Below, piece after piece: positions 2,373 through 38,745 of a stretch of DNA of 64,000 bases. Position numbers and translations under genes: made by a program. The stretch is from Trueperaceae bacterium (GTDB taxonomy: Bacteria > Deinococcota > Deinococci > Deinococcales > Trueperaceae). The DNA is taken from positions 1,664,001 to 1,728,000 of the forward strand of contig JAXHLW010000013.1 of NCBI GenBank assembly GCA_034521815.1. Direction: 5' to 3'. Position 1 is the stretch's first letter. Each line of letters opens with the position of its first letter. Below the pieces are notes generated by a model. It was not told the origin of the DNA. It did no database searches and worked only from the letters and a program-made list of their open reading frames with translations.

Positions 2373-2404
2373 ACGCTAGTCGGACCGGCGTTACGCCCGC
2401 GTTA
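2373..2404 (-). promoter_or_regulatory. Direct-repeat activator box plus -10 element: TAACG-N6-TAACG-N10-TAGCGT
   Basis: Read directly on the minus strand; same geometry at four other sites. Confidence 0.65.
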
Positions 2405-2506
2405 GGTCGATCGGCGAAGAAGCGCGGCAAGAAGAAGCGCGGCAAAAGGTGCCGACCGCGCTCTGTTCGATGGCGTGGAAGGATCGTCGCGACGCGCATC
2501 CGACGA

Positions 2507-2538
2507 TAACGGTCGCATCACGGTCGCCGGGCAATGCT
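2507..2538 (+). promoter_or_regulatory. Direct-repeat activator box plus -10 element: TAACG-N6-TCACG-N10-AATGCT
   Basis: 11-bp direct repeat ATAACGGTCGC/ATCACGGTCGC upstream of the secreted protein at 2594. Confidence 0.6.
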
Positions 2539-2593
2539 TGGCCAGTACGCCGTCGGTCCTCTACCCCTCGTCCCTCGCGAACGGAGCTCCTCG

Positions 2594-3106
2594 ATGCGCC
2601 GAAACGCCCTGCCTCTCATTCTGATTGCCTTCCTTCTGACCGCCGCGGCCCTCGCCCAGGACGTCCAGTACGCCGTCGCCTTCGAGTCCGTCGGCGGCGA
2701 CCCCGTCGCCAGCGACAGCTTCGCGTCCGGCGACGTGGTGGTCCTGCGCGTCGATCTCCACAACGGAAGCGACGCTGCGTTGGAGCCGGGCGCCTTCTGG
2801 GTGGCGTTCCCGCCGGTCGAGGGCGCGACCCTGTTCGGCAACTCCGGTGGTGGATTCAGCTTCCCCGATCGCATGGTCGATGCGGACGGCCAGGACGTGA
2901 TGGTCGACTGGGGTGGCGGAGCGGGCCTGACGCAGCTCCACGAGCTGTCCGACCCGCTCGCGCCGGGCGACACCGCGTCGCTGGTCCTCCAGGTCACCGT
3001 CCTGTCGTCGCGCAACTCGCTGGACGACCTCCTGAGCGAGACGCGTCTTCTGAACGCTGCCGACGAGCCGCTCGGCACGCTGGTGGACGAGGTGACGGTG
3101 CGCTGA
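2594..3106 (+). CDS. Secreted hypothetical protein, probable Ig-like beta-sandwich
   Basis: MRRNALPLILIAFLLTAAALAQ signal peptide, GGAG upstream, and a beta-rich LAPGDTASLVLQVTV motif. Confidence 0.65.
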   Translation: MRRNALPLILIAFLLTAAALAQDVQYAVAFESVGGDPVASDSFASGDVVVLRVDLHNGSDAALEPGAFWVAFPPVEGATLFGNSGGGFSFPDRMVDADGQDVMVDWGGGAGLTQLHELSDPLAPGDTASLVLQVTVLSSRNSLDDLLSETRLLNAADEPLGTLVDEVTVR

Positions 3107-3153
3107 AGCGTGCCCTGAGGGACAGGTCGCGCCGCATGCCGGTCGGCGCGTCC

Positions 3154-3678
3154 TCAGCGCTTTCGGGCCGCCGCGGCGTAGATGTCGCGGGGTCCGTACC
3201 GCGACCGCGTCCGTCCCACCTCGCGCACGTCGACGAGCCCGAGGGTTCGCGCGAGCTCCGCGAAGCGCGCGAACGAGACCGGATGCGGGATCCACGGCGT
3301 GCCGCGGTCCAGGTCGTACTCCACGAGCAGGAGCGTGCCGGTGGACCGGACACGCTCGAGAACCGGACGGAGGACGGTCTCCGCGTCGCGCGCGAAGTGA
3401 AGCGCGTTGGCCATCGAGACGCCGTCCAGGAGCGGCAACGCCAGGGGCTTCGCGAAATCGGCGCGGAGCGCGCGGATCTCCGCGCTCTTCGCGCCCGCGT
3501 CGCGCCCAAGGGCGTTCACGCTCGCCTGCCGATCCACGGCGATCACGACGCCCGCCTCGCCCAGAAGATCGGCCAGCGCGCGCGTGAACACGCCGCTGCC
3601 CGCTCCCAGGTCCGCCCAGGTGCCGCCCGACGACGGAACGCCGTCCCGGATCAGCGCCACGGCGTCTTCGTGGGTCAC
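3154..3678 (-). CDS. Class I SAM-dependent methyltransferase
   Basis: WADLGAGSGVFT motif I, VIAVD, and LDGVSMANALHF. Confidence 0.8.
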   Translation of the reverse strand: MTHEDAVALIRDGVPSSGGTWADLGAGSGVFTRALADLLGEAGVVIAVDRQASVNALGRDAGAKSAEIRALRADFAKPLALPLLDGVSMANALHFARDAETVLRPVLERVRSTGTLLLVEYDLDRGTPWIPHPVSFARFAELARTLGLVDVREVGRTRSRYGPRDIYAAAARKR

Positions 3679-3700
3679 GACGCGGCCCCTGGAACCGTCG

Positions 3701-4906: not shown

Positions 4907-5019
4907 CGGAGCAGCGTAGCGTCCATCCATGGGCGCGCTCGTGTCGCGCCGCCGGACGCCGAGATCCAGCTTCGCGGAGAGACGGTTTGGAGGGGCGGCT
5001 CCCGAGCGTTGGCCGCGTG

Positions 5020-5049
5020 TTGCCAGGCGTGGGGCGATCCCCCTAAACT
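5020..5049 (+). promoter_or_regulatory. Sigma70-type promoter TTGCCA-N18-TAAACT of the SARP regulator, probably leaderless
   Basis: The -10 lies 5 nt before ATG 5055 and there is no Shine-Dalgarno. Confidence 0.55.
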
Positions 5050-5054
5050 CGTTC

Positions 5055-8000
5055 ATGGGTCCGTACGTGGTACTGCTCGGCACTCCTTCGATCGAGCGCC
5101 ACGGGAAGCGCATCGAGCTGCCGCCGGGCAAGCTCTCGGCGCTCCTCCTCTACCTCGCCTACGGGACGGGGTGGGCGAGCCGCGACGAGGTGCTCTACCT
5201 CCTCTACCCCGACATGGACGAGCGCCGGGCGCGGGGCAACCTGCGGCCCCTCCTCACCCGGCTGCGGCGCCTGCCCTACGCCGAAGGGCTCGAGATCGAG
5301 CCGACGCGGCTACGGTGGGAGGTCCACACGGACGTCGCCGCATTCCGCGAGGCACTGCGCCTTGATGCGCCGGCGCATGCCGTGGAGCTCTACGGAGGCG
5401 AGCTGTTGGCGGGGTTCCACCTCCCCAACGCACCGGAGTACGAGAGCTGGCTGACGTTCGAGCGGACGGATCTGCGGGAGGCGTGGCGCCGGGCGTCGCT
5501 CGACGTCGCCGCCCGGCTCGAGGAGGACGGACGCGCCGAGGAGGCCGCCGGCGTCCTGGACCGGTTGCAGAAGGACGATCCGCTCGACGAGGAGGTGGTC
5601 CGCCGGTCACTGACGGCGTTGGCTCGTGCGGACCGGCCGAACGACGCGGTGCGCGCGTACGGAGCCTTCGAGCTCCGTCTGCGACGGGAGGTGGACGGGG
5701 AGCCCGAGGAGGCGACGCGCGCGATCGTGCAGGAGATCCGGAGCGGTGGGACGCCCGGAGGCCCGGCCGCCGCGCGGGCGGCGCCACGCCGGCCGCCCGC
5801 GGTCCTACCCACGCCGCCGACCGAGTTCATCGGGCGGGAGCGGGAGGTGGCCGAGATCAGCGGACGGCTGCGCGATCCCGCCTGCCGCTTGCTGTCGATC
5901 GTCGCCGCCGGCGGGATGGGCAAGACCCGAGTGGCGGCCGAGGTGGCGCGCCGTCTCGCGGACGACCATCACGACGGCGTCTTCTTCGTGGCCCTCGAGG
6001 CGGCGAGATCGGCCGGGCAAGCCGTGACCGCCGTCGCCGACGCCATGGCGCTAGCGTTCTTCGGGCCGCGCACCCCGCTCGACCAGCTCCTCGACCACCT
6101 CGCGGACAAGCGCCTGCTCCTCGTGCTGGACAACTTCGAGCACCTCCTCGACGACCCCGAGGGCACGGAGCTGGTGACGGGCCTGCTGGCGCGGGCCCCG
6201 GGCGCGAGCGTGCTGACCACCTCGCGCGAGCGCCTGAACCTGCGGGCCGAGTGGGTCCACGACCTCGACCCCATGGAGCTCCCTGGAAACGAAGACGCGC
6301 AACGCGACGCCGACGCGGTCGTTCTCTTCCTGCAGTCGGCGCTGCGGGCGGGCGTGGACGCCGAGCCGGACCTTCCCGACGTCGTCCGGGTGTGTCGTCT
6401 CACGGGCGGCATGCCGCTCGCCCTGGAGCTGGCGGCGAGCTGGCTGCGGGCCCTCACCGTCGCGGAGATCGCCGAGGAGCTCGGCGGCGGCATCGGCCTG
6501 CTCGCGTCGCCCCTGCGCGACCTGCCCGAGCGGCACCACAGCCTGCGCGGCATGTTCGACGCGTCCTGGCGGCGACTCTCGGAGCGGGAGCGAGGGGCCC
6601 TGCGGCGACTGGCGACGTTCCACGGGGGATTCCGACGGGAGGCGGCGCAGGCCGTGGCGGACGTGAGCCTGCCGCTCCTGCTCACGCTGGCCAACCGGTC
6701 GTTCCTGCGACGGGACGGGACCGGCCGGTTCACGCAGCACCCGCTCATGTGGCAGTACCTCCGAGACGCGGCCCTAGAGGACGAGGCGACCCGCGACACG
6801 GCCGCCCGACACGCCGCCTACTACGCCGCCTTCCTGCATGAGCGCGAGGCGGGCCTGCGCGGCCTCGAAGCACGACGAGTACGTGACGAGATCGGCAGCG
6901 AGCTGCCGAACGTGCGCGCCGCGTGGGCGTGGGCGATCGCCGCGGAGCGGGAGGACCTCCTCGACCTGGCGGCGGAGGGACTCTACATCTACTGCAACGA
7001 CGAGGGTCGCTACCACGAGTCCGAAGCCCTCTTCGCGGCGGGGGTCGACGCCGTCGGCGCCGCCGGGCGAGTGGCGGGGCGGCTCCGCCTCTTCCTGGGG
7101 GGCGCCCACAATTTCCTCGCACGGCCGGACCTCGTGATTCCTGGACTCGAGAAGGCCTCGGCCGTGCTCGCGACCGCGGGCGCGAAACGCGACGAAGCCA
7201 TGGCGCAGATACTCCTGTGGTCCGGCTACTGGATGGCGGACCGCCCGTTCGAGACGTCCGCGTCCGCCGCCCGGCGGGCCCTGCGGCTCTTCGCCGAGGC
7301 GGGCGACCGGGCGGGCGAGGCGGAGGTGATCGGCCTGCTGGCCGAATACACCGAGGATCCGGTCGCCGCGGAGGAGGAGTTCCGGGCCAGCCTGCGCGGG
7401 TTCGAGGCGTCCGGGGCGTGCTTCGCCGTCCTGGGCGGGGTCAGCTTGACCCTGAGCAACTACGCGCTCTTCCTCGGCCAGGTCCACGGCGCGTACGGCC
7501 GCGCTCACGCACTGCTCGACGAGGCCGTCCGCGTGGCACGGCTCCGCGCGGAGCCCTACAGCGTCGCCTGGTACCTCAACAACCAGGCGCACACGCTGAT
7601 CGAAGCGGGATCCTGGGACGAGGCGGCGCGACGGCTCCTCGAGGCGCGCACCGCCGCCGAAGGGCTCGCCTCCGGCTGGGGAACCTGGACGCTCGTCGAC
7701 GCGTTGTACGGATCGGGGCGGATCGCGCTCCTGCGCGGCGAGCACGCCGACGCGAGGCGCCATTTGACCCGCGCGCAGGAGCGGATCGCGACGCACGGGG
7801 ATCCGTTGGGAACGGGAGGCCAGATTCGCGTCGCTCTGGCAGATCTCGCGCTCGCGGAGGGTCGCCCCGACGAGGCCGAGGAGCAGGGCGAGGAGGCGCT
7901 GAGGCACTTCCTCACGCTCGGGCTCCAGAGCGGCATCCGCGAGTGGGGCAAGGCGGACTGCCTCGTCCGGCTCGGCTCGGTCGGCCTCGCGCAGAAGCAT

Positions 8001-8303
8001 GCGTCCGCCGCGGCCGAGCGCTTCGACGCGGCGCTCGCGATCGTCGAGCGCTGGCACCTGCTGCCCCTCGCGCTGCAGCTCGCCGTGGCGGTCGCCCCGT
8101 TCCTCCGCGCGGCTGACCGGGCCACCGAGCACGAGCGCCTCCTGCACCTCGCAGCGGCCTGTCCCGCCAGCACCCGCGAGACGCGGGAGGCCGCGGCGCG
8201 CGCGCTGGGGCGACCCACCGTGGCTGCGGGGCCCGACGAGCCCACCCTTCTCGGTCCCCTCATCGCGGAGCTTCGCGAGGTCGTGCGGGCGATGCGACGG
8301 TGA
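5055..8303 (+). CDS. AfsR/SARP-like regulator: wHTH + BTAD + STAND (NB-ARC-like) ATPase + TPR
   Basis: ALLLYLA..SRDEVLYLLYPD..ARGNLR; BTAD region LYGGELLAGF..ESWL..DPLDE; Walker A AGGMGKT, Walker B LLVLDNFE, GGMPLALELAA; helical repeats. Confidence 0.9.
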   Translation: MGPYVVLLGTPSIERHGKRIELPPGKLSALLLYLAYGTGWASRDEVLYLLYPDMDERRARGNLRPLLTRLRRLPYAEGLEIEPTRLRWEVHTDVAAFREALRLDAPAHAVELYGGELLAGFHLPNAPEYESWLTFERTDLREAWRRASLDVAARLEEDGRAEEAAGVLDRLQKDDPLDEEVVRRSLTALARADRPNDAVRAYGAFELRLRREVDGEPEEATRAIVQEIRSGGTPGGPAAARAAPRRPPAVLPTPPTEFIGREREVAEISGRLRDPACRLLSIVAAGGMGKTRVAAEVARRLADDHHDGVFFVALEAARSAGQAVTAVADAMALAFFGPRTPLDQLLDHLADKRLLLVLDNFEHLLDDPEGTELVTGLLARAPGASVLTTSRERLNLRAEWVHDLDPMELPGNEDAQRDADAVVLFLQSALRAGVDAEPDLPDVVRVCRLTGGMPLALELAASWLRALTVAEIAEELGGGIGLLASPLRDLPERHHSLRGMFDASWRRLSERERGALRRLATFHGGFRREAAQAVADVSLPLLLTLANRSFLRRDGTGRFTQHPLMWQYLRDAALEDEATRDTAARHAAYYAAFLHEREAGLRGLEARRVRDEIGSELPNVRAAWAWAIAAEREDLLDLAAEGLYIYCNDEGRYHESEALFAAGVDAVGAAGRVAGRLRLFLGGAHNFLARPDLVIPGLEKASAVLATAGAKRDEAMAQILLWSGYWMADRPFETSASAARRALRLFAEAGDRAGEAEVIGLLAEYTEDPVAAEEEFRASLRGFEASGACFAVLGGVSLTLSNYALFLGQVHGAYGRAHALLDEAVRVARLRAEPYSVAWYLNNQAHTLIEAGSWDEAARRLLEARTAAEGLASGWGTWTLVDALYGSGRIALLRGEHADARRHLTRAQERIATHGDPLGTGGQIRVALADLALAEGRPDEAEEQGEEALRHFLTLGLQSGIREWGKADCLVRLGSVGLAQKHASAAAERFDAALAIVERWHLLPLALQLAVAVAPFLRAADRATEHERLLHLAAACPASTRETREAAARALGRPTVAAGPDEPTLLGPLIAELREVVRAMRR

Positions 8304-11571: not shown

Positions 11572-11628
11572 CGAGCACCGAGACGCTCGTGGGCGGGCCG
11601 TTCAGGCCGCGACCCGCTGGTGCCGTCG

Positions 11629-12847
11629 TCACGTTGCGTTCCCGTCGCGGTCGCTCGCGCCACGGCTGAGCGCGTGCCGTACGTGAGGCTCCGCCACGCC
11701 CACTCCGCAGGCCCGAACCGGAATCGCTGGAGCCACCAGCGAGCGGCCACGACCTGGGTGGCGAACAGGCCCAGCGCGATCGGAAGGCCCACGGAGGGGC
11801 CGACGCGGCCGTAGAGGCCGAGCCCGTAGCCGTCGAACAGGAGCGTCATGACGATCGACTGGCTCAGGGTAGACCGTGGACGCGCCATCCGGCCTGCGGC
11901 CGCGAGCGCGCGCTCCAGCCCGACCGCCCAGCTCGGCCGCCCACGCGGCGCCCGTGGAACGCCAACGTGGCGAGGCCGAGGTACGCCGAAGCCCCAGGAC
12001 GGGTCCGCCGAGCGAGGTCGACAGCACCAGCCGGAACGTCTCCCCCTCCCCCAGCAGTCGCGAGGCGTAGATCGCCTTGAGCGCGAGGCCGACGGGGAGC
12101 GCCACCGCGACGCCCCTGCGCCATGCGCGCCGCACGTCCTCCGAGGCGCCGCGGCGCGCTCGAACGCACGGCTCTTGGCCAGCGCCGCGCCCGATCAGGA
12201 AAGGCCCAGCGCCGAGGAAGATACGCGACGGCGGACGCCACGACGTCCACTCCCTGCTCCAGCCGCGCCCCGAGGATCTCTCCGAACCCACCGTTCTGGT
12301 AGAGCTCCACCCACGGGTGTGGGCTGGAGGATGCCGGATCACCGCCGGAGGTCGCGCCGAGGAAGAGCAGGACGCCCACCACCCACGAGCCTGCGCCCGC
12401 TAGCGCCAAGCCGCGGGCCCGCACGGTCGCGAAGGGGAGCAGCACGAACCCGATCAGCGCGTACTGCGTCAGGATGTCACCGACCCAGACGCCGAACAGG
12501 TGCACCGCGCCGATGACGAGGAGCCAGCCGAGCCGCCGGGCGAATCGCGGCGTGGCGTCGTCGCCCCGGTCGCCGGATCCAGCGTCCGAAGCCCCAGCCG
12601 AACAAGACGCTGAAGATGGTGTAGAACGCGCCCTCGGCGAGGACGAGGACGCCCCACTCGAGCCAGCGATCCGCGCCCGACCACCACGTCAGCGGTTCGG
12701 CGTACAGGAACGACGGTCCGCTGAACGCCAGAAGGTTGACGACGAGGATCCCGAACAGCGCGATGCCCGAAGCGCGTCGACGTGCGTGAGCCGGTCGCGG
12801 CCGCGTACGGGGCGGCCTGGCGTCGTCGCCGTGGTCGGCGGAGTCAC
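11629..12847 (-). pseudogene. DUF418 protein, copy 2, multiply frameshifted (real decay or sequencing error)
   Basis: Fragments identical to copy 1 are spread over several frames. Confidence 0.75.
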
Positions 12848-12993
12848 CGGAGCAGCGTAGCGTCGCATCCATGGGCGCGCTCGTGTCGCGCCGCCGGACG
12901 TCGAGATCCAGCTTCGCGGAGAGACGGTGTGGAGGGGCGGCTCCCGAGCGTTGGCCGCGTGTTGCCAGGCGTGGGGCGATCCTAAACTGGGTC

Positions 12994-15900
12994 ATGGATC
13001 CGTACGTGGTACTGCTCGGCACTCCTTCGATCGAGCGCCACGGGAAGCGCATCGAGCTGCCGCCGGGCAAGCTCTCGGCGCTCCTCCTGTACCCTCGCCT
13101 ACGGGACGGGGTGGGCGAGCCGCGACGAGGTGCTCTACCTCCTCTACCCCGACATGGACGAGCGCCGGGCGCGGGGCAACCTGCGGCCCCTCCTCACCCG
13201 GCTGCGGCGCCTGCCCTACGCCGAAGGGCTCGAGATCGAGCCGACGCGGCTACGGTGGAAGGTCCCGACGCGGACGTCGCCGCGTTACCGCGAGGCGCTG
13301 CGCCGTGATGCGCTGGCGCATGCCGTGGAGCCTACGGAGGCGAGCTGTTGGCGGCGGATTCCACGTCCCCAAGGCACCGGAGATACGAGAGCTGGCTGAC
13401 GTTCGAGCGGACGGATCTGCGGGAGGCGTGGCGCCGGGCGTCGCTCGACGTCGCCGCCCGGCTCGAAGCGGACGGACGCGCCGAGGAGGCCGCCGGCGTC
13501 CTGGACCGGTTGCAGAAGGACGATCCGCTCGACGAGGAGGTGGTCCGACGGTCACTGGTGGCGTTGGCTCGTGCGGACCGGCCGAACGACGCGGTGCGCG
13601 CGTACGGAGCCTTCGAGGTCCGTCTGCGACGGGAGGTGGACGGGGAGCCCCGAGGAGGCGACGCGCGCGATCGTGCAAGAGATCCGGAGCGGCGGGACGC
13701 CCGGAGGACCGGCCGGCCGCGCGGGCGGCGCCACGCCGGCCGCCCGCGGTCCTACCCACGCCGCCGACCGAGTTCATCGGAAGGAGCGGGAGGTGGCCGA
13801 GATCGAGCGGACGGCTGCGCGATCCAGCCTGCCGCTTGCTGCGATCGTCGCCGCCGGCGGGATGGGCGAGACCCGAGTGGCGGCCGAGGTGGCGCGCCGA
13901 CTCGCGGACGACCATCGCGACGGCGTCTTCTTCGTGGCCCTCGAGGCGGCGAGATCGGCCGGGCAAGCCGTGACCGCCGTCGCCGACGCCATGGCGCTAG
14001 CGTTCTTCGGGCCGCGCACCCCGCTCGACCAGCTTCTCGACCACCTCGCGGACAAGCGCGTGCTCGTCGTGCTGGACAACTTCGAGCACCTCCTCGACGA
14101 CCCCGAGGGCACGGAGCTGGTGACGGGCCTGCTGGCGCGCGGCCCGGGCGCGAGCGTGCTGACCACCTCGCGCGAGCGCCTGAACCTGCGGGCCGAGTGG
14201 GTTCACGACCTCGACCCCATGGAGCTCCCTGGGAACGAAGACGCGCAGCGCGACGCCGACGCGGTCGTTCTCTTCCTGCAGTCGGCGCTGCGAGCGGGCG
14301 TGGACGCCGAGCCGGACCTTCGCGACGTCGTCCGGGTGTGTCGTCTCACGGGCGGCATGCCGCTCGCCCTGGAGCTGGCGGCGAGCTGGCTGCGCGGCCC
14401 TCACCGTCGCGGAGATCGCCGAGGAGCTCGGCGGCGGCATCGGCCTGCTCGCGGCGCCCCTGCGCGACCTGCCCGAGCGGCACCACAGCCTGCACAGCAT
14501 GTTCGACGCGTCCTGGCGACGACTCTCGGAGCGGGAGAGAGGGGCCCTGAGGCGGCTGGCGACGTTCCACGGGGGATTCCGACGGGAGGCGGCGCAGGCC
14601 GTGGCGGACGTGAGCCTGCCGCTCCTGCTCACGCTGGCCAACCGGTCGTTCCTGCGACGGGACGGGACCGGCCGGTTCACGCAGCACCCTCTCATGTGGC
14701 AGTACCTCCGAGCCGCGGCTCGGGAGGACGAGGCGACCCGCGACACGGCCGCCCGGCACGCCGCCTACTACGCCGGCTTCCTGCATGAGCGCGAGGCGGG
14801 CCTGCGCGGCCTCGAAGCACGACGAGTACGTGACGAGATCGGCAGCGAGCTGCCGAACGTGCGCGCCGCCTGGGCGTGGGGGATCGCCGCGGAGCGGGAG
14901 GACCTCCTCGACCTGGCGGCGGAGGGCTCTACATCTACTGCAACGACGAGGGTCGCTATCACGAGTCCGAAGCCCTCTTCGCGGCGGGGGTCGACGCCGT
15001 CGGCGCCGCCGGGCGAGTGGCCGGGGACGGCTCCGCCTCTTCCTGGGGGCGCCCACAATTTCCTCGCACGCTCGGACCTCGTGATTCCTGGGCTCGAGAA
15101 GGCCTCGGCCGTGCTCGCGAGCGCGGGCGCGAAACGCGACGAAGCCATGGCGCACATTCTCCTGTGGTCCGGCTACTGGATGGCGGACCGCCCGTTCGAG
15201 CATGGCCGCGTCCGCCGCCCGGCGGGCCCTGCGGCTCTTCGCCGAGGCGGGCGACCGGGCGGGCGAGGCGGAGGTGATCGGTCTGCTGGCCGAATACACC
15301 GAGGATCCGGTCGCCGCGGAGGAGGAGTTCCGGGCCAGCCTGCGCGGGTTCGAGGCGTCCGGGGCGTGCTTCGCCGTCCTGGGCGGCGTCACCTTGGCCC
15401 TGAGCAACTACGCGCTCTTCCTCGGCCAGGTCCACGGCGCGTACGGCCGCGCTCACGCACTGCTCGACGAAGCCATCCGCGTGGCACGACTCCGCGCGGA
15501 GCCCTACAGCGTCGCCTGGTACCTCAACAACCAGGCGCACACGCTGATCGAAGCGGGATCCTGGGACGAGGCGGCGCGACGGCTCCTCGAGGCGCGCACC
15601 GCCGCCGAAGGGCTCGCCTCCGGCTGGGGAACCTGGACGCTCGTCGACGCGTTGTACGGATCGGGGCGGATCGCGCTGCTACGCGGCGAGCACGCCGACG
15701 CGAGGCGCCAGTTTGACCCGCGCGCAGGAGCGGATCACGACGCACGGGGATCCGTTGGGAACGGAGGCCAGATTCGCGTCGCTCTGGCAGATCTCGCGCT
15801 CGCGGAGGGTCGTCCCGACGAGGCCGAGGAGCGCGGCGAGGAGGCGCTGAGACACTTCCTCACGCTCGGGCTCCAGAGCGGCATCCGCGAGTGGGGCAAG

Positions 15901-16252
15901 GCGGACTGCCTCGTCCGGCTCGGCTCGGTCGGCCTCGCGCAGAAGCATGCGTCCGCCGCGGCCGAGCGCTTCGACGCTGCGCTCGCGATCGTCGAGCGCT
16001 GGCACCTGCTGCCCCTCGCGCTGCAGCTCGCCGTGGCGGTCGCCCCGTTCCTCCGCCGCGGCTGACCGGGCCACCGAGCACGAGCACCTCCTGCACCTCG
16101 CAGCGGCCTGTCCCGCCAGCACCCGCGAGACGCGGGAGGCCGCGGCGCGCGCGCTGGGGCGACCCACCGTGGCTGCAGGGCCGGACGAGCCCGCCCTTCT
16201 CGGTCCCCTCGTCGCGGAGCTTCGCGAGGTCGTGCGGGCGATGCGACGGTGA
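12994..16252 (+). pseudogene. SARP-STAND-TPR regulator, copy 2, multiply frameshifted, Walker A K->E
   Basis: Pieces of the 5055-8303 protein in all three frames; GGMGET instead of GGMGKT (position 13868). Confidence 0.75.
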
Positions 16253-16447
16253 GGCCGGCCTGCTCGCCCGGATCGTTCCCGACGTAGCGCCGAGCACCCT
16301 AGACAGTCCTCGACGTGCCTGAACCGTTGGCCTTACCACCCGCGCGATTTTCCGAACCTTCGGGGGTCGAGTATGCTACCGTTCGGTCAAGCATCAATGC
16401 ATATCTCTAGCGTACTTGCAACGGGTCGAGATGCGTGAGGAGGAGCT

Positions 16448-16936
16448 ATGAAGGTGATCAGTCGTCGCAGCGTCTTGAAGGCTGGGGTCGCAGGTGCCGT
16501 TTTCGTGGCGCTGGGCCCCTCCTTCGCCCAGGAGTATCCCGAAGACTATCCGCTGACGGTCATCGGCAACGCCAACGATCTGGACGTCGGGCAGGCGGTC
16601 TACTTCACGTATCCCGACGGGCAGTCGCAGGGCATCTTGGTCAAGCTCGGCCAGGAGGCGCTCGCGGGGGTCGGTCCGGAGCGCGACATCGTCGCCTACT
16701 CTGCCGCGTGCACCCACATGGGCTGCGGCGTGCAGTTCAAACAAGGGCGCTTCGTCTGCCCCTGCCACAACTCGATGTTCGATCCGGCCGTGAACGGCCA
16801 GGTCTATCAGGGGCTGGCCACGACGTACCTGCCTCAGATCGGCCTCGCGCTCGACGAGGGAACCGGTGATCTTTCGGCGGCGTTCGTCGAAGGGGTCATC
16901 TGGGGCCGCGTCGACAACGTGCTTCCCCAGGATTAA
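16448..16936 (+). CDS. aioB: Arsenite oxidase small subunit, copy 2 (intact, E->D change)
   Basis: Identical to copy 1 except DLEVG->DLDVG. Confidence 0.9.
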   Translation: MKVISRRSVLKAGVAGAVFVALGPSFAQEYPEDYPLTVIGNANDLDVGQAVYFTYPDGQSQGILVKLGQEALAGVGPERDIVAYSAACTHMGCGVQFKQGRFVCPCHNSMFDPAVNGQVYQGLATTYLPQIGLALDEGTGDLSAAFVEGVIWGRVDNVLPQD

Positions 16937-16947
16937 GGAGCGCTGCG

Positions 16948-19521
16948 ATGGCTTTGTACGATCGTCGAAGACGAGCTGCCCATCCCCCCAAGGGCACCGA
17001 GAAGCGCAACACCGTCTGCCAGTACTGCAACGTCGGCTGCGGCTACGAGGTCTACACCTGGCCGGTCGGCACCGTAGGCGGAAAAGCCCCGAGCGACAAC
17101 GCCTTCGGAATCGACCTGAGCGCGCCGCAACCGCCGCTCCAAGGGCTGGCCTATACCGAGTCGATGCACTCGGTGGTCACCGAACCGAGACGGCCGCCGC
17201 TACCACGTGGTCATCGTGCCGACCAAGGACTCGGCGATCAACCTCCAGGGCGACCACTCGAGCCGTGGCGGTTCGAACGCCCAGACGCTCTTCTCCGAAT
17301 CTCGCGGCACCCAGGAACGCCTCAAGTATCCGCTCTTGCGCGTCGGCGACGACTTCCACGCGATCACCTGGGACGAGGCGTTGCGTCTGCTTGGACGGGT
17401 CATCAAAGGCGTGCACGGCAGGTACGGCCCCGACGAGCTGACCGCCAAGGCGGCCGATCACGGCGGCGCGAACGGCGGCTTCGCGAACATCTACGCCGTC
17501 GGGCGTCTCTTCTTCACCGGTCTCGGCATGAAGTACGTCGCGATGCACAACCGTCCGGCGTACAACTCGGAGGTATGGGGCAGCCGTGACCGGGGCGTGC
17601 ACGAGCTCCACTACACCGCCGAGGACGCGCGACTCTGCGACACGCTGGTGCTCTGGGGCGCGAACAGCTACGAAACCTCTACCGTCTTCTACACCGAGCA
17701 CATGCAGCCGAACTTCCAGGGCGGAACGCAGTCTCAGAAGAGAGAGGCCTTCGACGAGGGCGAGCCGGTCATCCCGACACGCCTCGTGGTGGTCGACCCG
17801 CGCCGCACCTCGACGCTGACGATCCTGGAGGCGATCGACCCGTCTCGCACGCTGCACCTGCGCCCCAACCTGGGGACGGACTACGTGCTCGCCAACGCCG
17901 TCGCTCGCGTGATATGGGAGCGGGGCTGGCAAGACCAGGAGATGATCGATACCCGCACCGACGCGGCGACGTTCGAGGACTACCAGGAGAAGAGCCTGCA
18001 GCTGGGCAAGCCGCTGGACGAGCTTCTCGGCGAAGCGGAAGAGATCACGGGCGTCCCGCGCGCCCAGATCGAGCAGGCGGCCGAGTGGATCGCCGCGCCG
18101 AAAGAGGGCGGCTTCAGAAACCGCACGCTGAACATCTACGAAAAAGGGATGATCTGGAACTACAAGAACTACGACACCATCGCCGCCCTGGTCCAGATGG
18201 AGGTGTTGGCGGGCAACATCGGGCGACCCGGTACGGGCTGCGGACGACAAGGCGGGCATCAGGAGAGCTACGTGCGTCCCCCGTACCCCGGCCAGCGTCC
18301 GCCCCCCAACGTGGACAAGTACCTCTTGGACGGGAACGGCAAGTTCTACTGGGTGATCGCCAACAACCCGTACCTGTCGACCCCGAACAACCAGCTGTTC
18401 CGCAAGCGCATCCACGAGCGCACCCTGGCGTTGACGAGCTTCCTGTCGATCCTGGACGAATCCGCTGGCGAGCCCAGCAGCATGGACGAGCTGGCCGATC
18501 GCGTCCTGCAAGGCGTCGAGCAGACCGGCGGGCTGTTCATGGTGGTGCAAGACATCTACCAGACCGAAGTCGCCCGTGACGCGCATCTGGTTCTTCCGGC
18601 GGCCTGCTGGGGCGAGATCGACATGACCTCGGTCAACTGCAACAGCCGTTTGCTCAGGCTCTACGAGAAGTTCATGGATCCGCCCGGCGAAGCCATCGCC
18701 GACTGGGACATCATGGCCCGCACCGGGCGTCAGCTCGCCGAGCTGTACGAGGCCGAGGGCGACGGCGAGTCCGCCCAACGGTTCGCCGGGATGGAGTGGC
18801 AGAGCGACGAGGACGTGTTCTTGGCAGGGGGCCAGGAGTTCGAGAGCAACGAGGTTCCCGCCGACATGGAGGCGTCGCTTCACCCGTTCAACTACAAGGG
18901 CGTGGACTACGCCATGCTCCGCGAGTTGGGCAGCAGGGGATTCAGACGCCCATCCGTCGAGACCCCCAGTCGGGCGAGCTGGTAGGGACCAAGCGACGCT
19001 ACACCGAGCGGTTCGGTACCGAGTCGGGACTGTTCGAGTGGTACGGTACCGACGCGTGGCCGGGCTTTCCCGCCGAGGTGCAGAAGTACCTGGAGGGAGA
19101 CAAGGCCGAACGCTACCCCTTCTGGATGACGACCGGGCGCAACCAGACCATCTGGCAGAGCGCGTATCACCAGCGCCACATCCCCGAAAAGATGTTGACC
19201 GTGCCGCTTCCCTACGTCGAGCTCCACCCGGACGACGCGGACCGGCTGAGTATCGAGAGCGGCGACATGGTGAGCCTCTTCAACGAAGAGGGCAACGGCA
19301 CGTTCGTGGCGTACGTCACCGAGGCGGCTAGACCCGGCATGGTGTTCGCGATCCAGTATCACCCTGGTGGTACGTCGAACGGCATGGTCTCGCCCTACAC
19401 CGACCCGAAGACGACGATCCCCTGGTACAAAGGGGCCCGCGTCGCCGTTCGGCGGCTCGAAGGGACCATCGGCAGCGTGAAGCGTACGACCAGCTTCCGC
19501 TCGCAGATCGACTTCTCGTAA
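16948..19521 (+). pseudogene. aioA: Arsenite oxidase large subunit, copy 2, broken by single-base indels (~16965, ~16988, ~17182, ~18930)
   Basis: Same 2574-nt span as copy 1, split over three ORFs. Two of the indels fall in homopolymers, so the gene may be intact in vivo. Confidence 0.75.
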
Positions 19522-19631
19522 CGAGCACCGAGACGCTCGTGGCGGGCCGTTCAGGCTCGCCCACGTCCCGTCCGGGTCGGATGACGGACCGGACCGGGAG
19601 CGCGTCCGGCCCGGTGGTATCGTCGCGGATC

Positions 19632-34279: not shown

Positions 34280-34993
34280 CTACGGCGCGGAAGAAGCGGG
34301 CGACGCGGGCGACGCCAGCCGCTCCGTCAAGGCGGACCCCAGCTCGCCCGGCAGGCGGTGCCCGCTTCCCTCGACGACCGTGAGCTGGGCCGTCACGCCC
34401 GCCGCTCGGAACGCTTCCACGCCCGCCTCGACGTCGGCGCGGTCCGGATCGGCCGCGCCGACGTACACGTAGACCGGCAGATCGCCCAGTCCCGCGAGCG
34501 AGCCGGCGTCGCTCTCCTCCGGCGCGCCGGGAAAGAGCGTCAGGGAGGCGTATCGATCGGGGGCCAGCAGGGCCGCCTTGACGGCCCCTGCCGCGCCGGT
34601 CGAGACGCCGATCAAGTGCACGTCGCCGACCGGGTAGGCCTCGGCCATCGCGTCGACCAACGGGGCGAGGAGGCGCTCCGCGCCGCGATGGAAGTAGGTG
34701 CCGGGGGCGATCGGCGAGGCGACCAGCCAACCGTCGGCGACGGTGTCCCGGAAGTCGCGCAGGACGTCACCGGCGTCGCCATGGTCCTGGAGGCCTGGCG
34801 GAACGATCAGCAACAGGGGGTGCGGACCGTCGCCCTGAGGCGGGTAATGCCTGACCTCGACCTCGGTCCCGTCCGCCTGGAACGGCCGCGTCTGGCTTCG
34901 CTGCGCCAACGCGACGGTCAGCGCCGCGGCGAGGCTCAGCACGATGAGCAAGCGTATGGCCCGGATCGGACTGGACAGGATCGGACTGGACAT
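34280..34993 (-). CDS. Secreted esterase/alpha-beta hydrolase
   Basis: Signal peptide ending ALAQ, GVSTG nucleophile, VGAAD and GH triad residues. Confidence 0.72.
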   Translation of the reverse strand: MSSPILSSPIRAIRLLIVLSLAAALTVALAQRSQTRPFQADGTEVEVRHYPPQGDGPHPLLLIVPPGLQDHGDAGDVLRDFRDTVADGWLVASPIAPGTYFHRGAERLLAPLVDAMAEAYPVGDVHLIGVSTGAAGAVKAALLAPDRYASLTLFPGAPEESDAGSLAGLGDLPVYVYVGAADPDRADVEAGVEAFRAAGVTAQLTVVEGSGHRLPGELGSALTERLASPASPASSAP

Positions 34994-35060
34994 ACGTGAC
35001 CTCCAACCGCCGAGGCCTGCGCAGATCCGGACAGGACGCCGGGCGCCCCTCGGCCGGTTC

Positions 35061-35092
35061 ACGTTAGTGGATCGGGCGTCATTTTCCCGTTG
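35061..35092 (-). promoter_or_regulatory. Direct-repeat box plus -10 element: CAACG-N6-TGACG-N10-TAACGT
   Basis: Points toward the secreted esterase; same geometry as the other boxes. Confidence 0.6.
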
Positions 35093-35102
35093 GCTTCAGC
35101 CA

Positions 35103-35134
35103 TAACGCCGGACTAACGATCCGTTCTCTACGAT
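35103..35134 (+). promoter_or_regulatory. Direct-repeat box plus -10 element: TAACG-N6-TAACG-N10-TACGAT
   Basis: Perfect instance, back-to-back with the minus-strand box. Confidence 0.68.
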
Positions 35135-35274
35135 CGCTGCACGAGTCGCCCCCGTCCGGCGTGCGGCCAGGGCGCGCTGCTACCCGCGCTCACGGTCACG
35201 CGTCGGACCGCGGCTCGGTCGATGCCGCTTCGGAGCACCCCGCTCCTAGCGGGCGATCCTCGATGGAGGTCGTC

Positions 35275-35547
35275 ATGACCCGCCCTCGTTCGCCGTTCAC
35301 TCGCTCGCCGGTTTCCCGCTCGCGGTTCCCGCGCACGCTGCTGATCATCGTGGTCGGCACGCTGAGTCTCGTCGGACTCGCCGGGGCGTTGATCGGTGCG
35401 AACGGTCTCGCGGAGACGGCCGATCCTGTGCTGCGACCGTTCGTGCCGGTATTGGACGCGGTCTCCGCCATGCTCACCGGTCACGACTGTCAGGCTGCGC
35501 GCGCGCAGCAGGCGGTCGACACCGTGCTGGCGACCCCTACCTGCTAG
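35275..35547 (+). CDS. Small (90 aa) exported or membrane-anchored protein with two C-terminal Cys
   Basis: GGAGG RBS, Arg-rich N-region followed by hydrophobic LLIIVVGTLSLVGLAGALIG. Confidence 0.55.
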   Translation: MTRPRSPFTRSPVSRSRFPRTLLIIVVGTLSLVGLAGALIGANGLAETADPVLRPFVPVLDAVSAMLTGHDCQAARAQQAVDTVLATPTC

Positions 35548-35653
35548 CGTGTCGCATGCTCGATGACGAGCGTTCCGGCCTACCGCACGAGTTCGCGCTG
35601 GAGACGGTCGATCGGACCGTCTCGCTAGGCGCCGATCTCGCTGCGATGCGACC

Positions 35654-37648
35654 TCACCCTTCGCCCAGCAGTCCGTCGAGCTGTTCGAGCCGGTCCTCGG
35701 CCCGTCCACTGCGGACGGACGATGCGTCCAGGTCGCGAACCTTTCCGTACCAGTCCATGGCCTCTCGGAACGCGCCGCGCATCTGCGCCTCCTCGGCGGC
35801 GGCCAGCAGATGGGGCAGAGCGAGGTTCGTCTCGCCGGCCTGCTCGTAGTGGTACGCGATCCGGGCGGGAGCGCCGCCGATCTTCGCGAGCGCGTCGCCC
35901 GCACGGCGATGCAGCATGGCTCGGACCGGCGCGGGGGTGGTCGCACGGATCGCTGCGTAGACCAGGTCGTGCGAGAACGCGAGCCCCTCGATCAGCCGCG
36001 CCTCCTCCAGGGCGGTCCTGAGGGCGGACAGGCTTTCGTCGGCGACACGCAGGACCGTTCGCATCAATGCGGGCGACGCGTCGGTCTGGGCCACCGCCAA
36101 TAGCTGCAGGAAGCGAAGCTGCGCGACGCTGAGCCGGCGGAACCGCACCTCGAGCACCTCGGCCACCCTGGCGGGCAGCAGCTCTCCGAGCTCCGCGAGG
36201 TCGAGGTCGCCCGCCTCGAGCAGCCCTTTGAGCGTCTCGATCACGAAGAGCGGGTTCCCGCCGGTGATGCGGTGCAGCGTCGCCGCGAACGCAGGAGCGC
36301 CGTCCACCGCCGTGGACGCCAGCAGCGCCTCGACCGCCTTCGCCGACAGCGGCGCGAGCTCGACGTGGATCGCGGTTCCGCTTCGGACCAGGTCCGCGAG
36401 GAACGTGCGGAATCGGTCGTCGACCTCGTGGGTACGGAAAGTACATAGAGCGTACTGTCCCTCCCTGCCGGTCGCTTGCGGCGTGATGCGGGCGAACATG
36501 TAGTTCGCCATCTCGAGGCTGGCGGCGTCCACGAACTGCCAGTCGTCCGCGACCCAGACGTCGAGCCACCTGACGCTGAGGATCAGGAACTCGGCCAGCG
36601 TGGCATAGAAGAACTGCTTCTCCTCGAGGCTCGTCATCGGCGGCGGGGGCCTGTCGGTCAGCGTCGGGATGAGGCGGGAGAGCTCCCGTCGCATGATCGG
36701 CGTCAGCTGGATGCCAGGACAACCGTCCAGAACGACGCGAAGCGCGCGGGCTTGGGTGGCGTAGGGGGCGGTCGCGTCGCCAGGCCTTGCCTGGAACGCG
36801 TTCCAGCGGACGCGTGGCACCTTCGACTCGGCGAACTCGTGCATCAGCCGGCTCTTGCCGATGCCGCCAACGCCGGAGATGTACACCACCTGCCCGTTCG
36901 CCCAGGCCCCCTCCATTCTCGTCCAGACGTCCTCCCGTCCGGCCAGCAGCGGGGCCGGGCCACGGTCACCGGAATGCGGATCGCCGGCCGGGGGTGCGCT
37001 GAACGGTCGCCGCCGCGACGTCGCGAGCCAGCGCCGACGTCTCGGGAAGCGGCCGGACGCCGAACTCGGCCTGGAGCATCCGGGCGCAGCGGTGATAGGC
37101 GTCGAGGGCCGCGGCGCGGTCCCCCGCCAGGTACGCCAGCCGGATCACGCGACGGTGCGCGAGCTCGGACAGCCGATCGACCTCCAGGGCCCGCCGTGCC
37201 GCCGCGAGCGCGTCGGCCATTCTCCCCTCCGCCTCGAGCGCGTCCGCCCGCGCGGACCACCGTTCGATCCGCGCGACTCTGCGGCGCTCGACCTGGAACT
37301 CCGTCCACGCATGGAGCTCGGCGCAGTCGCTCAGGTCGTACGCCGACAGGAGGTCGCCCTCGCCCTCGGCGATGCGCACCTCCGGCGACAGCCGCAACGG
37401 ATCGCCGTCCACGATGGGCGCTCGCTGACGGACGGCGTGCACGGCCTGGCGCAGGTTGTTGCGCGGCGAGGCCGCGAGGGGCCAAAGCAGGTCGGACAAC
37501 CGCCCCGGGGCGTGGGTCCCTCGATCACCAGGTAGGCCAGCATGGCCGCGGCCTTGCGGCCTGGAACGAACGTCACGGCGCCGGGGCGTACGACCGTGAC
37601 GTCGTCCGAAACCGTCAGTCGCCAGGCCGGATGGCGCGCATCGACCAT
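35654..37648 (-). CDS. BTAD (SARP-like) + AAA/STAND ATPase regulator, frameshifted ~37505 and ~36960
   Basis: RKAAAMLAYL..PR, RNNLRQ, DRLSELAHRRVIRLAYLAGDRAAAL, GVGGIGKSR, ADDWQFVD, GGNPLFVIE and FSHDL. Confidence 0.8.
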
Positions 37649-37662
37649 GTCGGCACCTCGCT

Positions 37663-37708
37663 CTCGTCCGCTCGCCCTCGTCCGCTCGCCCTCGTCCGTC
37701 GCCCTCCG
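37663..37708. repeat. 14-bp tandem repeat (CTCGTCCGCTCGCC, ~3 copies) upstream of the BTAD regulator
   Basis: Read directly from the sequence. Confidence 0.7.
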
Positions 37709-37733
37709 CCGAATCGCCCCGGACGGGCGACGG

Positions 37734-38687
37734 CTAGCGGAGCGTCGCCAAGAACGTGTCCACGATCTCGACGTACCGCTCAGGATGCTCCACGAAGCCC
37801 ATATGGCCGGCATCGTGAACCACGACGACGCGAGCATCGGGCAGCGCGTCGACGTTCGCGTCGATCCCCGCGGGCACGACCGTGTCCTGGTCGCCGTGAA
37901 CGATCAACACCGGTGCTTGGACCGTCGATAGCTCGTCCAGCCAGTTCCAGTCGCCCATCGACTCGAAGATCGGGAGGACCGTGAAGAGGACGTTGTCGTC
38001 CCACTCGCTCGGCAGGGCGCACACTTTCCGGTTCAGGTCGGGGATCAGCTGGGCCGAGGCGTCGGACACCTGCGACGCGTTGATGATGTCGTACGCCCCG
38101 AGGCACGCCTCGTAGCCGGGCATGTCGTCGGGCACCGACGCGAGATACGCGTCCAGTGCGTCGAAGTCCGGACCCGGCTTCAGCATCTCCATCTGCGCGT
38201 ACGGATCGGCCGCGGGCTCGATCGGGCCGAACGCGATCACGCCACGCACGCGACCTGGATGACGGGCGGCGTAGAGCTGCGCGAAGCCGCCCCACAGCGA
38301 CCAGCCCAAGATCGTCGCCGGCTCGGCTCCGAAGTGATCGTGCACGGCGGCGATGTCCGCGATCTCGTGCTCCATGCCCAGCAGCTCGGGATCGCGAACC
38401 GGGGTCGAGAGGCCACGTCCGCGCGTGTCGTAGAACACCACCGTCCACTCTTCGGCCAACGCCGAGAGGGGCACGGCCGCGGAGGTCTGGTTCGTCACGA
38501 TCAGATCGGGCGGGCCGTCGCCGTGCTTCTGGTAGTACAGCGCCACGCCGTCGTCGACGGGGACGTACCCCTCCTCGATTCCCTGCGCCGCCGCGCCGCC
38601 CAGCAAGGCCGCGACGAGCACGGCCATCAGCGCCGTGACGGCGCCGCCGGCACGCTTGGCCAGACTCCAGCTGTTCCGTCGTCTCAT
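37734..38687 (-). CDS. Secreted alpha/beta hydrolase (proline iminopeptidase-like)
   Basis: Signal peptide ending AAAQ, YDTRGRGLS, GWSLWGG, VHGDQD and AGHM. Confidence 0.8.
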   Translation of the reverse strand: MRRRNSWSLAKRAGGAVTALMAVLVAALLGGAAAQGIEEGYVPVDDGVALYYQKHGDGPPDLIVTNQTSAAVPLSALAEEWTVVFYDTRGRGLSTPVRDPELLGMEHEIADIAAVHDHFGAEPATILGWSLWGGFAQLYAARHPGRVRGVIAFGPIEPAADPYAQMEMLKPGPDFDALDAYLASVPDDMPGYEACLGAYDIINASQVSDASAQLIPDLNRKVCALPSEWDDNVLFTVLPIFESMGDWNWLDELSTVQAPVLIVHGDQDTVVPAGIDANVDALPDARVVVVHDAGHMGFVEHPERYVEIVDTFLATLR

Positions 38688-38713
38688 CGGCACCCTCCCC
38701 TTCGCACGAACCG

Positions 38714-38745
38714 AGCGTAGAGAATCAGGCGGTATTCGGGCGTTA
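38714..38745 (-). promoter_or_regulatory. Direct-repeat box plus -10 element: TAACG-N6-TACCG-N10-TACGCT
   Basis: Upstream of the secreted hydrolase; same geometry as the other boxes. Confidence 0.63.

What the first reader, a model, noticed from the sequence alone, without database searches (positions are those of the whole stretch)
2373..38745. Candidate SARP/BTAD-STAND secretome regulon: fixed promoter motif TAACG-N6-TAACG-N10-TANNNT before five exported-protein genes
Seen in sequence: five intergenic sites share identical geometry. They are 2373-2404(-) TAACG/TAACG/TAGCGT, 2507-2538(+) TAACG/TCACG/AATGCT, 35061-35092(-) CAACG/TGACG/TAACGT, 35103-35134(+) TAACG/TAACG/TACGAT and 38714-38745(-) TAACG/TACCG/TACGCT. 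Each points at a gene with a signal peptide or N-terminal TM (beta-helix protein, Ig-like protein, esterase, small Cys protein, hydrolase). All lie within ~3 kb of a BTAD-ATPase regulator (5055-8303 or 35654-37648). I did not find it before the housekeeping or operon genes I inspected. Established: Streptomyces SARPs, including AfsR, bind direct repeats with 11-bp periodicity at a fixed distance upstream of the -10, replacing the -35. Inference: these Deinococcota BTAD-STAND proteins are ligand-gated activators of neighbouring secreted proteins through this box. I do not know of such a regulon being described in this lineage.
Basis: partly seen in the sequence, partly recalled or inferred. Interest (0 to 1): 0.82.

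Follow-up and report, generated by a model that had tools for sequence, protein, structure and literature searches.

The report
SARP-type activator boxes before exported proteins
Five promoters in this bacterium carry a twice-repeated seven-base signal that is most likely the binding site of neighbouring AfsR-like switch proteins, and the same signal, often tied to exported proteins or to an unnamed 60-residue protein, recurs in several bacterial phyla where the targets of such regulators were not known.

Summary
All five sites are present at the stated coordinates. They are instances of a heptamer direct repeat, consensus GTAACGC-N4-GTAACGC, placed 8 or 9 nt before a TANNNT -10 and without a -35. 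This is SARP geometry. The spacing has two values, not one.

The link to SARP/BTAD genes holds in a test not selected on the motif. A matrix trained on sites far from BTAD genes hit 17 of 72 gene-end windows at 40 BTAD loci, against 8 of 585 control windows. Recognition-helix residues matching AfsR 88, 91 and 92 covary with heptamer bases 2, 3 and 1. The exact box recurs in Chloroflexota, Clostridia, Betaproteobacteria and Actinomycetota, and 14 of 66 intergenic hits lie within 1 kb of a SARP-type gene.

Targets are enriched for exported proteins but are not only these. In relatives the box often drives a leaderless 60-aa ORF beside the regulator, a layout recalling AfsR and afsS.

Limits: no binding or start-site data; 99 of 124 sites in relatives have no BTAD gene within 6 kb; the regulator for the two left-hand sites is uncertain. 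Verdict: new variant of a known kind.

The parts
2373..2405 (-). Box 1: CTAACGC-N4-GTAACGC-N9-TAGCGT; 19 nt before the start at 2353
   Evidence: (26.2 bits, best in genome)
2506..2538 (+). Box 2: ATAACGG-N4-ATCACGG-N9-AATGCT, divergent from box 1; weak -10; 55 nt before the start at 2594
   Evidence: (19.1 bits)
35061..35093 (-). Box 3: CCAACGG-N4-ATGACGC-N9-TAACGT, back to back with box 4
   Evidence: 17.0 bits
35102..35134 (+). Box 4: ATAACGC-N4-CTAACGA-N9-TACGAT; contigs of four other runs read G at 35113, nearer the consensus
   Evidence: (25.3 bits)
38714..38746 (-). Box 5: ATAACGC-N4-ATACCGC-N9-TACGCT; points at the hydrolase gene and, 85 nt behind it, regulator 2 (possible positive autoregulation, inferred)
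   Evidence: (24.9 bits)
1040..2353 (-). Target of box 1: 437-aa exported right-handed beta-helix protein
   Evidence: signal-like N-terminus; beta-helix clusters, score 0.97; weak NosD and pectate-lyase-like hits
2594..3106 (+). Target of box 2: 170-aa protein with a signal-like N-terminus, no family found
5055..8303 (+). Regulator 1: 1082-aa SARP domain (wHTH + BTAD), NB-ARC/NACHT-type ATPase, TPR; recognition helix LRPLLTRLR
34280..34993 (-). Target of box 3: 237-aa exported esterase-like alpha/beta hydrolase
   Evidence: PF00756, E 7e-4, below the family cut-off
35275..35547 (+). Target of box 4: 90-aa protein with one hydrophobic N-terminal segment and two Cys; no family
35654..37648 (-). 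Regulator 2: wHTH + BTAD + AAA_16 ATPase, about 664 codons, no Pfam TPR match; helix LRQAVHAVR. Split by two frameshifts in this assembly; contigs of other runs carry one more base at both places
37734..38687 (-). Target of box 5: 317-aa exported alpha/beta hydrolase
11602..19560 (+). Second, indel-rich copy of 3675-11610 (97.4% identity, 50 gaps) including a broken copy of regulator 1; it carries no box

Best explanation
The five sites are activator boxes for SARP-type (OmpR-like winged helix + BTAD) regulators. Two SARP domains would bind side by side to two heptamers one helical turn apart, in place of a -35 element, and recruit the housekeeping sigma holoenzyme to a lone TANNNT -10 lying 8-9 nt downstream. 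This step is shown for AfsR and inferred here. The ATPase and, where present, TPR parts would keep the protein off until a signal arrives; this is inferred from AfsR and the signal is unknown.

Paralogues read variants of one heptamer, NNNACGC, through helix residues matching AfsR 88, 91 and 92. This is shown here as covariation only. In this window regulator 2 most likely serves boxes 3, 4 and 5 and may amplify itself through box 5. Boxes 1 and 2 are served by regulator 1 or by a paralogue in trans. The output is mainly exported hydrolases, lipoproteins and surface proteins.
For: Geometry: period 11 only, spacer 8 (11 hits) or 9 (10 hits) in 81 windows at BTAD gene ends; the other four periods give at most 1 hit per spacer. 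None of the five sites has more than 3 of 6 matches to TTGACA at 16-18 nt. AfsR geometry: PMC10936776.

Association: 17 of 72 windows and 14 of 32 genes at 40 loci chosen by BTAD E-value, against 8 of 585 windows and 7 of 263 genes. With the preset spacer 9 alone, 10 of 81 against 4 of 585. OmpR-type genes show no such association: 1 of 124 within 6 kb against 2 of 42 controls. G012 has no SARP-type gene by two searches, and all 7 of its loose-pattern matches lie under open frames of 226 aa or more.

Covariation in 35 regulator-box pairs, with heptamer bases 1-3 left unscored: Arg92 goes with G1 in 23 of 25 regulators against 1 of 10; Lys88 with G2 in 10 of 10 half-sites against 3 of 60; Tyr91 with G3 in 12 of 12 against 5 of 58, the last two each on three separate branches. 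Numbering checked on AfsR. Regulator 2 (Gln88, His91) predicts T2 and A3, seen in 5 of 6 and 5 of 6 neighbouring half-sites.

Close homologues of regulator 1 have a box before a signal-peptide-like gene within 1.5 kb upstream in 5 of 11 loci. Other phyla; the commonest -10 there is TATAAT, 14 of 126.
Against: No binding, transcript or start-site data. 99 of 124 sites have no BTAD gene within 6 kb, and 47 of 66 intergenic cross-phylum hits have no SARP-type gene within 5 kb. Regulator 1 has Arg92 but only 1 of its 4 neighbouring half-sites starts with G, and two unrelated genes lie between it and box 2. The clostridial REC-wHTH proteins beside G-starting boxes have Asp at 92.

Six of the ten non-Arg regulators form one clade, so the p-values overstate. 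Spacer 8 and the 16-bit threshold were adopted. Pairs taken from motif-selected loci have A3 fixed in the first repeat. In the eight low-GC genomes the reversed pattern is about as frequent as the real one, 87 against 92 (my sums).
Confidence: 0.72

Rival explanations
1. The boxes are SARP sites, but the window's sites are read mainly by another SARP-type protein acting in trans. One candidate is the conserved receiver-SARP response regulator (Deide_19260 type; G000 C13:1213922-1214971). The STAND neighbours would then be co-regulated or bystanders.
For: Most sites lack a neighbouring BTAD gene. A REC-SARP regulator with unknown targets is conserved in Deinococcus and Truepera (PMC3564903), and G000 has one. 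G000 has at least 13 SARP-type genes. Regulator 1 fits its neighbouring boxes poorly.
Against: The G000 REC-SARP helix FHTTLYRLR predicts G1 and G3. Among the window's 10 half-sites G1 occurs once and G3 once. Box variants track the helix of the adjacent gene, which a single trans factor would not produce.
Confidence: 0.15
2. The boxes belong to an OmpR/PhoB-family response regulator, whose winged helix also binds 11-bp direct repeats over the -35 region (GTNAC-like half-sites of GlnR and MtrA; recalled, not tested).
For: G000 has 7 OmpR-type hits. One exact cross-phylum hit lies directly before an OmpR-type gene (L166). A 13.7-bit look-alike precedes a receiver-domain gene at G000 C13:403735.
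Against: No positional link in 124 sites (0 within 1 kb) against 17 within 1 kb for SARP-type genes. Covariation with SARP helices. No intergenic match among 7 in the genome that lacks SARP genes (one genome only).
Confidence: 0.07
3. SARP-type proteins bind the boxes but repress, or act both ways, instead of activating.
For: The Geobacter REC-SARP GSU1771 is reported to repress pgcA, pulF and relA and to activate two other genes (10.1101/2023.02.27.530372).
Against: The fixed phase to the -10, to within one base, and the lack of a -35 are what an activator that contacts polymerase needs. A repressor site needs no such phase (general knowledge).
Confidence: 0.05
4. Chance or compositional artefact in GC-rich intergenic DNA.
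For: The five-site pattern was fitted after the fact. Reversed-pattern counts are high in low-GC genomes.
Against: Single-geometry peak in G000 outside the window. Agreement of the two heptamers at unscored bases in 32, 29 and 30 of 35 pairs. 94 of 124 hits intergenic against 11 of 42 controls.
Confidence: 0.01

Closest known systems
AfsR and the afs box at afsS, Streptomyces coelicolor (large SARP; PDB 8HVR, 8K60, 8JKE)
   Same: Domain order wHTH-BTAD-NOD-TPR (regulator 1). Profile match over the whole SARP domain, E 1e-16. Two repeats at 11-bp period in place of a -35, with the 3' repeat about 8 bp from the -10 (PMC10936776). Arg87, Arg92 and Arg94 positions kept. In relatives a small ORF lies next to the regulator under the box.
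   Different: The heptamer sequence is not that of the afs box as far as the paper's base assignments show. The spacer takes two values. Targets are exported and envelope proteins, not secondary-metabolism genes. Hosts lie outside actinomycetes. The small ORF is a distinct family; no homology to AfsS was tested, and AfsR's position beside afsS is recalled, not read.
Deide_19260 (REC-SARP, COG3947) of Deinococcus deserti and DR0724 of D. radiodurans
   Same: SARP-type domain in the same phylum (PMC3564903, PMC1274311; passages).
   Different: Those papers name no site or target. Deide_19260 has a receiver input, not a STAND ATPase.
GSU1771 of Geobacter sulfurreducens
   Same: SARP-family regulator outside actinomycetes that binds promoters of envelope-related genes in EMSA.
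   Different: Receiver-type, mostly repressing; the passages read give no motif.
PhoB/OmpR-family boxes (pho box, GlnR and MtrA boxes)
   Same: Same winged-helix fold and 11-bp direct repeats over the -35 region (recalled; OmpR-type chains appear only as weak hits, E 0.007 or worse).
   Different: The regulators here carry BTAD and STAND domains and match AfsR and EmbR better than OmpR proteins. No OmpR-type gene is linked to the sites.

Membership tests
SARP family (large, AfsR-type) | N-terminal OmpR-type winged-helix domain | tested here: met
   Profile A5, led by regulator 1, matches AfsR residues 28-103, E 3e-5, and EmbR. Pfam Trans_reg_C did not hit residues 1-148 of regulator 1.
SARP family (large, AfsR-type) | BTAD domain after the winged helix | tested here: met
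   PF03704 above cut-off in both regulators.
SARP family (large, AfsR-type) | STAND-type ATPase and C-terminal TPR sensor | tested here: inconclusive
   Regulator 1: NB-ARC, NACHT and TPR_12 above cut-off. Regulator 2: AAA_16 just under cut-off and no TPR family found.
SARP family (large, AfsR-type) | Target promoters with direct repeats at 11-bp period, 3' repeat 8 bp from the -10, poor -35 | tested here: met
   Period 11, spacer 8 or 9; the window's five have 9.
SARP family (large, AfsR-type) | Binds the repeats and activates transcription by contacting RNA polymerase | not testable with these tools
   Only association and covariation.
SARP family (large, AfsR-type) | ATP-dependent release of autoinhibition; control by Ser/Thr phosphorylation | not testable with these tools
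   Walker A-like GGMGKT and GGIGKS are visible; activity not testable.
AfsR-AfsS system | Regulator drives afsS, a small regulatory gene | tested here: inconclusive
   A small ORF lies in 15 of 45 BTAD loci of relatives, 13 of the 15 with a box of 16 bits or more just upstream. None was found in G000. Homology to AfsS was not tested.
OmpR/PhoB response regulator regulon | Receiver + Trans_reg_C regulator linked to the sites | tested here: inconclusive
   No positional link, but a global regulator need not be adjacent.

The most novel reading that the evidence does not exclude
SARP-type winged helices outside Streptomyces share one core site (NNNACGC twice, period 11, 8-9 nt before the -10) and tune bases 1-3 through three helix residues, so that targets can be predicted from protein sequence across phyla. 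Many STAND members form a two-gene circuit with an unnamed 60-aa beta-beta-beta-alpha protein (1655 clusters at 50% identity) that they switch on as a leaderless transcript and that acts back on the regulator or relays its signal.
Probability: 0.35. Interest if true: 0.82.

Novelty: new variant of a known kind. Interest (0 to 1): 0.66.

Why it matters
Reviews describe SARPs as mainly or specifically actinomycete antibiotic regulators (PMC10936776, PMC10972967). The Deinococcota members that have been noticed have no known targets (PMC3564903, PMC1274311). BTAD genes occur in 39 of 41 genomes searched, up to 30 per genome.

A defined box with a candidate three-residue code makes their regulons predictable and testable in culturable Deinococcus, Thermus and Meiothermus strains. 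It points to envelope and exported proteins as the usual output of these bacterial STAND switches. It also gives a large unnamed small-protein family its first regulatory context. The activation mechanism itself is known from AfsR, which caps the score.

Tried and rejected
(1) Small protein as a mimic of the SARP N-terminal sheet and helix: profile comparison gave probability 1.5%; dropped.
(2) Fold of the small protein: confident model, pLDDT 82.8, three strands and a helix. No match above Z 4.3 or with E under 0.001. No Pfam family above 1 of 11 members; no NCBIfam or Pfam family for the single members tried.
(3) Complex of one small protein with its regulator: no answer, score 0.02; not evidence either way.
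(4) A C-terminal G-[LIV]-[RK] tail as a family-wide TPR ligand: only 9 of 137 family members have it.
(5) No RNA holder listed for 34000-39200, so no start-site test was possible.
(6) aioBA-like genes behind regulator 1 as targets: no box of 13 bits or more at 8303-8498.
(7) An ECF-sigma reading of the AAC repeat (idea from memory): the logo has no conserved element at the matching distance, and the -10 is TATAAT-like.
(8) 14 of the 80 flanked cross-phylum hits lie inside genes, 8 with an added palindrome. One sits beside a lambda P-type gene. They are probably phage origin repeats and were left out of the intergenic count.
(9) Two high-scoring G000 hits (C12:67573, C13:522893) are in or overlap coding sequence and are treated as false positives.
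(10) Searches for related loci with alignments A1 and A2 could not be run for lack of conserved columns, so cross-phylum loci were reached through the motif. That selects for G at base 1, and these loci were left out of the covariation test.


Full report
OBSERVATION. The five sites are at the stated places and strands. The window is C13:1664001-1728000 of G000, a 2.63-Mb, 71% GC assembly in 13 contigs, 83.5% complete, with many frameshifts in this region. A pattern fitted to the five sites gives 5 matches against 0.01 by chance, which is circular, so I tested outside the window.

THE MOTIF. In 41 genomes of the order, AACG-N8-ACG-N10-TANNNT has 193 matches, the reversed pattern 107 and a spacer longer by two 64. 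The excess lies in the 33 genomes I took as high-GC: 101 against 20 and 29. In the eight I took as low-GC it is 92 against 87 and 35 (my sums of the tables). I fetched 6-kb flanks for 124 of the 193 hits (26 listed G011 hits left out, 43 not listed) and for 42 of the 64 controls. 94 of 124 are intergenic against 11 of 42, and 82 against 6 have a same-strand gene within 300 nt. The logo of 86 sites shows information at positions that the pattern did not fix, matched in both repeats: G 58% and 58%, T 65% and 66%, C 62% and 67%. The unit is therefore GTAACGC-N4-GTAACGC-N9-TANNNT. A one-base-shorter class exists: 187 matches against 81 reversed (my sum). TANNNT is the experimentally supported -10 of this phylum and lies 6-7 nt before leaderless starts (PMC12340547, passages). 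The five window targets are leadered, with purine-rich RBS-like stretches.

WHO BINDS IT. Among motif-selected sites a BTAD or wHTH gene lies within 1 kb for 17 of 124 against 1 of 42 controls, and within 6 kb for 25 against 3. Most sites thus have no such neighbour. For the reverse test I took the 45 best BTAD matches. Forty were fetched anew and five were already held. I scanned their ends with a matrix trained on 63 sites that had no BTAD gene nearby. At the preset spacer, 10 of 81 windows scored 16 bits or more against 4 of 585 control windows. Only period 11 gave a peak, at spacers 8 and 9. With both spacers, chosen after that result, the 40 new loci gave 17 of 72 windows against 8 of 585, and 14 of 32 genes against 7 of 263. 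In G000, 7 of 13 hits of 17 bits or more lie within 3 kb of a SARP-type gene, a zone covering 2.7% of the genome; outside the window it is 2 of 8, p 0.018. Nine of 13 SARP-type genes of G000 have no box of 13 bits or more within 3 kb. OmpR-type genes are not linked to the sites. G012, with no SARP-type gene found, has 7 loose matches, all under long open frames.

COVARIATION. Of 77 regulators in my loci and G000, 35 have an adjacent box of 13 bits or more when heptamer bases 1-3 are not scored; 4.6% of control genes reach this. The helix numbering was checked on AfsR, where Arg92 reads T-38 and T-27 and Thr88 reads -36 and -25 (PMC10936776 section 7). Arg92 goes with G1 in 43 of 50 half-sites against 2 of 20. 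Lys88 goes with G2 in 10 of 10 against 3 of 60. Tyr91 goes with G3 in 12 of 12 against 5 of 58. On a tree built without the helix, Lys88 and Tyr91 each fall on three branches. Six of the ten non-Arg92 proteins form one clade, in which the single Arg member (L304) has G1. Parsimony needs 6 changes for residue 92, 7 for base 1 and 8 jointly. Kin are not independent, so this is a strong lead and not a proof.

Checks in G000, whose boxes lie outside the windows used: the C13:1566537 regulator (Lys88, Arg92) has GCAACGC/GGAACGC and GCAACGC/GGAACGG nearby, G1 in 4 of 4 and G2 in 2 of 4. Regulator 2 (Gln88, His91) fits its six half-sites in 5 of 6 at bases 2 and 3. Regulator 1 (Arg92) does not fit: 1 of 4. 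Still, 5 of its 11 closest homologues returned with loci have a box of 12.8 bits or more before a signal-peptide-like gene within 1.5 kb upstream, as in the window.

OTHER PHYLA. Record titles include Trueperaceae, Meiothermus, Oceanithermus, Chloroflexota, Clostridia, Burkholderiales, Micrococcaceae and Acidobacteria. Of 80 flanked loci, 66 are intergenic; 19 of these have a SARP-type gene within 5 kb and 14 within 1 kb, and one has an OmpR-type gene. In Clostridia the neighbour is a receiver protein whose output domain matches the SARP winged helix (probability 95%). The profile for these was built from the same loci, so their count is partly circular, and they carry Asp at 92, against the simple code. 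No matched chance control was run for this scan.

TARGETS. A signal-peptide heuristic, not SignalP, passes 49 of 82 targets against 106 of 401 control genes; with a lipobox, 22 of 82 against 17 of 401. Named targets in the cross-phylum set include astacin, thermolysin, subtilase-PKD, M13 and caspase-type proteases, ShlB and Ig-like or MBG domains (76 of 154 flanking genes scanned). Others are not exported. Eleven of the 124 sites precede a 58-74-aa ORF of one family. It lies in 15 of 45 BTAD loci, with a box of 16 bits or more directly upstream in 13 and a start 6-8 nt after the -10 in 9. It also follows the box in Chloroflexota records (L170, L177, L215). The family has 1655 representatives, no Pfam name and a three-strand, one-helix fold. 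It was not found in G000. Its function is open. I think feedback on the regulator is the likeliest role, on gene context alone.

THE WINDOW. Boxes 3 and 4 form a back-to-back array of four heptamers just beyond the 3' end of regulator 2, and box 5 points through the hydrolase gene into regulator 2. Regulator 2 is split at two places. Contigs of four runs from two studies carry one more base at 37502-37504 in all four runs, and near 36950-36991 in three, so the breaks are probably assembly errors. The same contigs show G at 35113 in all four runs, and in two runs a one-base loss and gain inside the spacer of box 5 that keeps its length. Boxes 1 and 2 are a divergent pair 2.5 kb before regulator 1, with a methyltransferase and a DUF418 gene between.

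MECHANISM AND STATUS. Shown here: the sites, their geometry, their association with SARP-type genes, the covariation and the target bias. Taken from AfsR (PMC10936776, sections 4 and 7 read whole, other passages): side-by-side binding of two SARP domains over the -35 region, contact with sigma region 4 and the core enzyme, and inhibition by NOD and TPR that ATP relieves. Inferred: that the same happens here, which protein serves which box, and any ligand.

LITERATURE. Ten searches (listings and abstract starts only) showed no paper describing this box, this code or the small ORF. The library lacks most subscription journals, and no supplement was opened; start-site tables in supplements could bear on the -10 claim. 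Passages were read in PMC12340547, PMC10972967, PMC3564903, PMC1274311, PMC13581612 and 10.1101/2023.02.27.530372. Earlier notes of this scan report SARP-type operators before secreted-protein genes in other phyla. They are unchecked, are not independent support, and show that the theme recurs.

VERDICT. It works like AfsR, and regulator 1 meets the domain tests for a large SARP. New are the site, its spread across phyla, the candidate recognition code, the exported targets and the small-ORF module. New variant of a known kind; interest 0.66.

Noticed in passing
window 3675-11610 and 11602-19560: Tandem 7.9-kb duplication, 97.4% identical with 50 gaps; the second copy is full of frameshifts. 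It may be an assembly artefact from a poorly polished read or a decaying real copy.
   Followed up: partly
window 8498-11571 (copy at 16448-19521): Rieske protein plus molybdopterin enzyme with a Rieske 3Fe-4S domain, the make-up of arsenite oxidase AioBA (label recalled), directly behind regulator 1 but with no box.
   Followed up: partly
window 34389-35069: Contigs in all four runs laid skip 679 bases here, removing most of the esterase gene and the -10 of box 3 while keeping the repeats: the target gene varies between strains.
   Followed up: no
L040-L043 (G030:C1:707039-722399 and 1667945-1685828): Eight boxes, several with TCACG in the second repeat, before glycosyltransferase and sugar-nucleotide-type genes, one cluster beside a wHTH-ATPase lacking a BTAD match: a possible SARP-controlled polysaccharide regulon.
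   Followed up: partly
G028, G032, G036, G040: Many sites of the form GTGACGC with spacer 8 in one family. The code would assign them to a Tyr91/Arg92 protein such as the conserved REC-SARP regulator.
   Followed up: no
G000 C13:1564781-1565044 and C9:12791-12973: Small ORFs of other kinds (87 and 60 aa; DUF4242-like and DUF1059-like by recall) lie directly behind two other BTAD genes; the second has a 14.5-bit box.
   Followed up: no
G000 C10:7475 and C13:13317-14289: A 22-bit box precedes a kelch-like exported protein on C10 with no SARP gene on that contig; a similar gene lies next to the closest paralogue of regulator 1 on C13.
   Followed up: partly
L167, L181, L183, L192, L212, L213, L218, L232: GTAACGC repeats inside genes, most with an added inverted copy, one beside a lambda P-type gene: probably phage replication iterons.
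   Followed up: partly
L304:7957-11373: The small-ORF domain is in one open frame with a downstream lipoprotein-subtilase-like gene; fusion or chance read-through.
   Followed up: no
window 60365-64000: Start of a large (over 2200 aa) Ig/cadherin-repeat surface protein on the minus strand, without a box in the genome scan.
   Followed up: no
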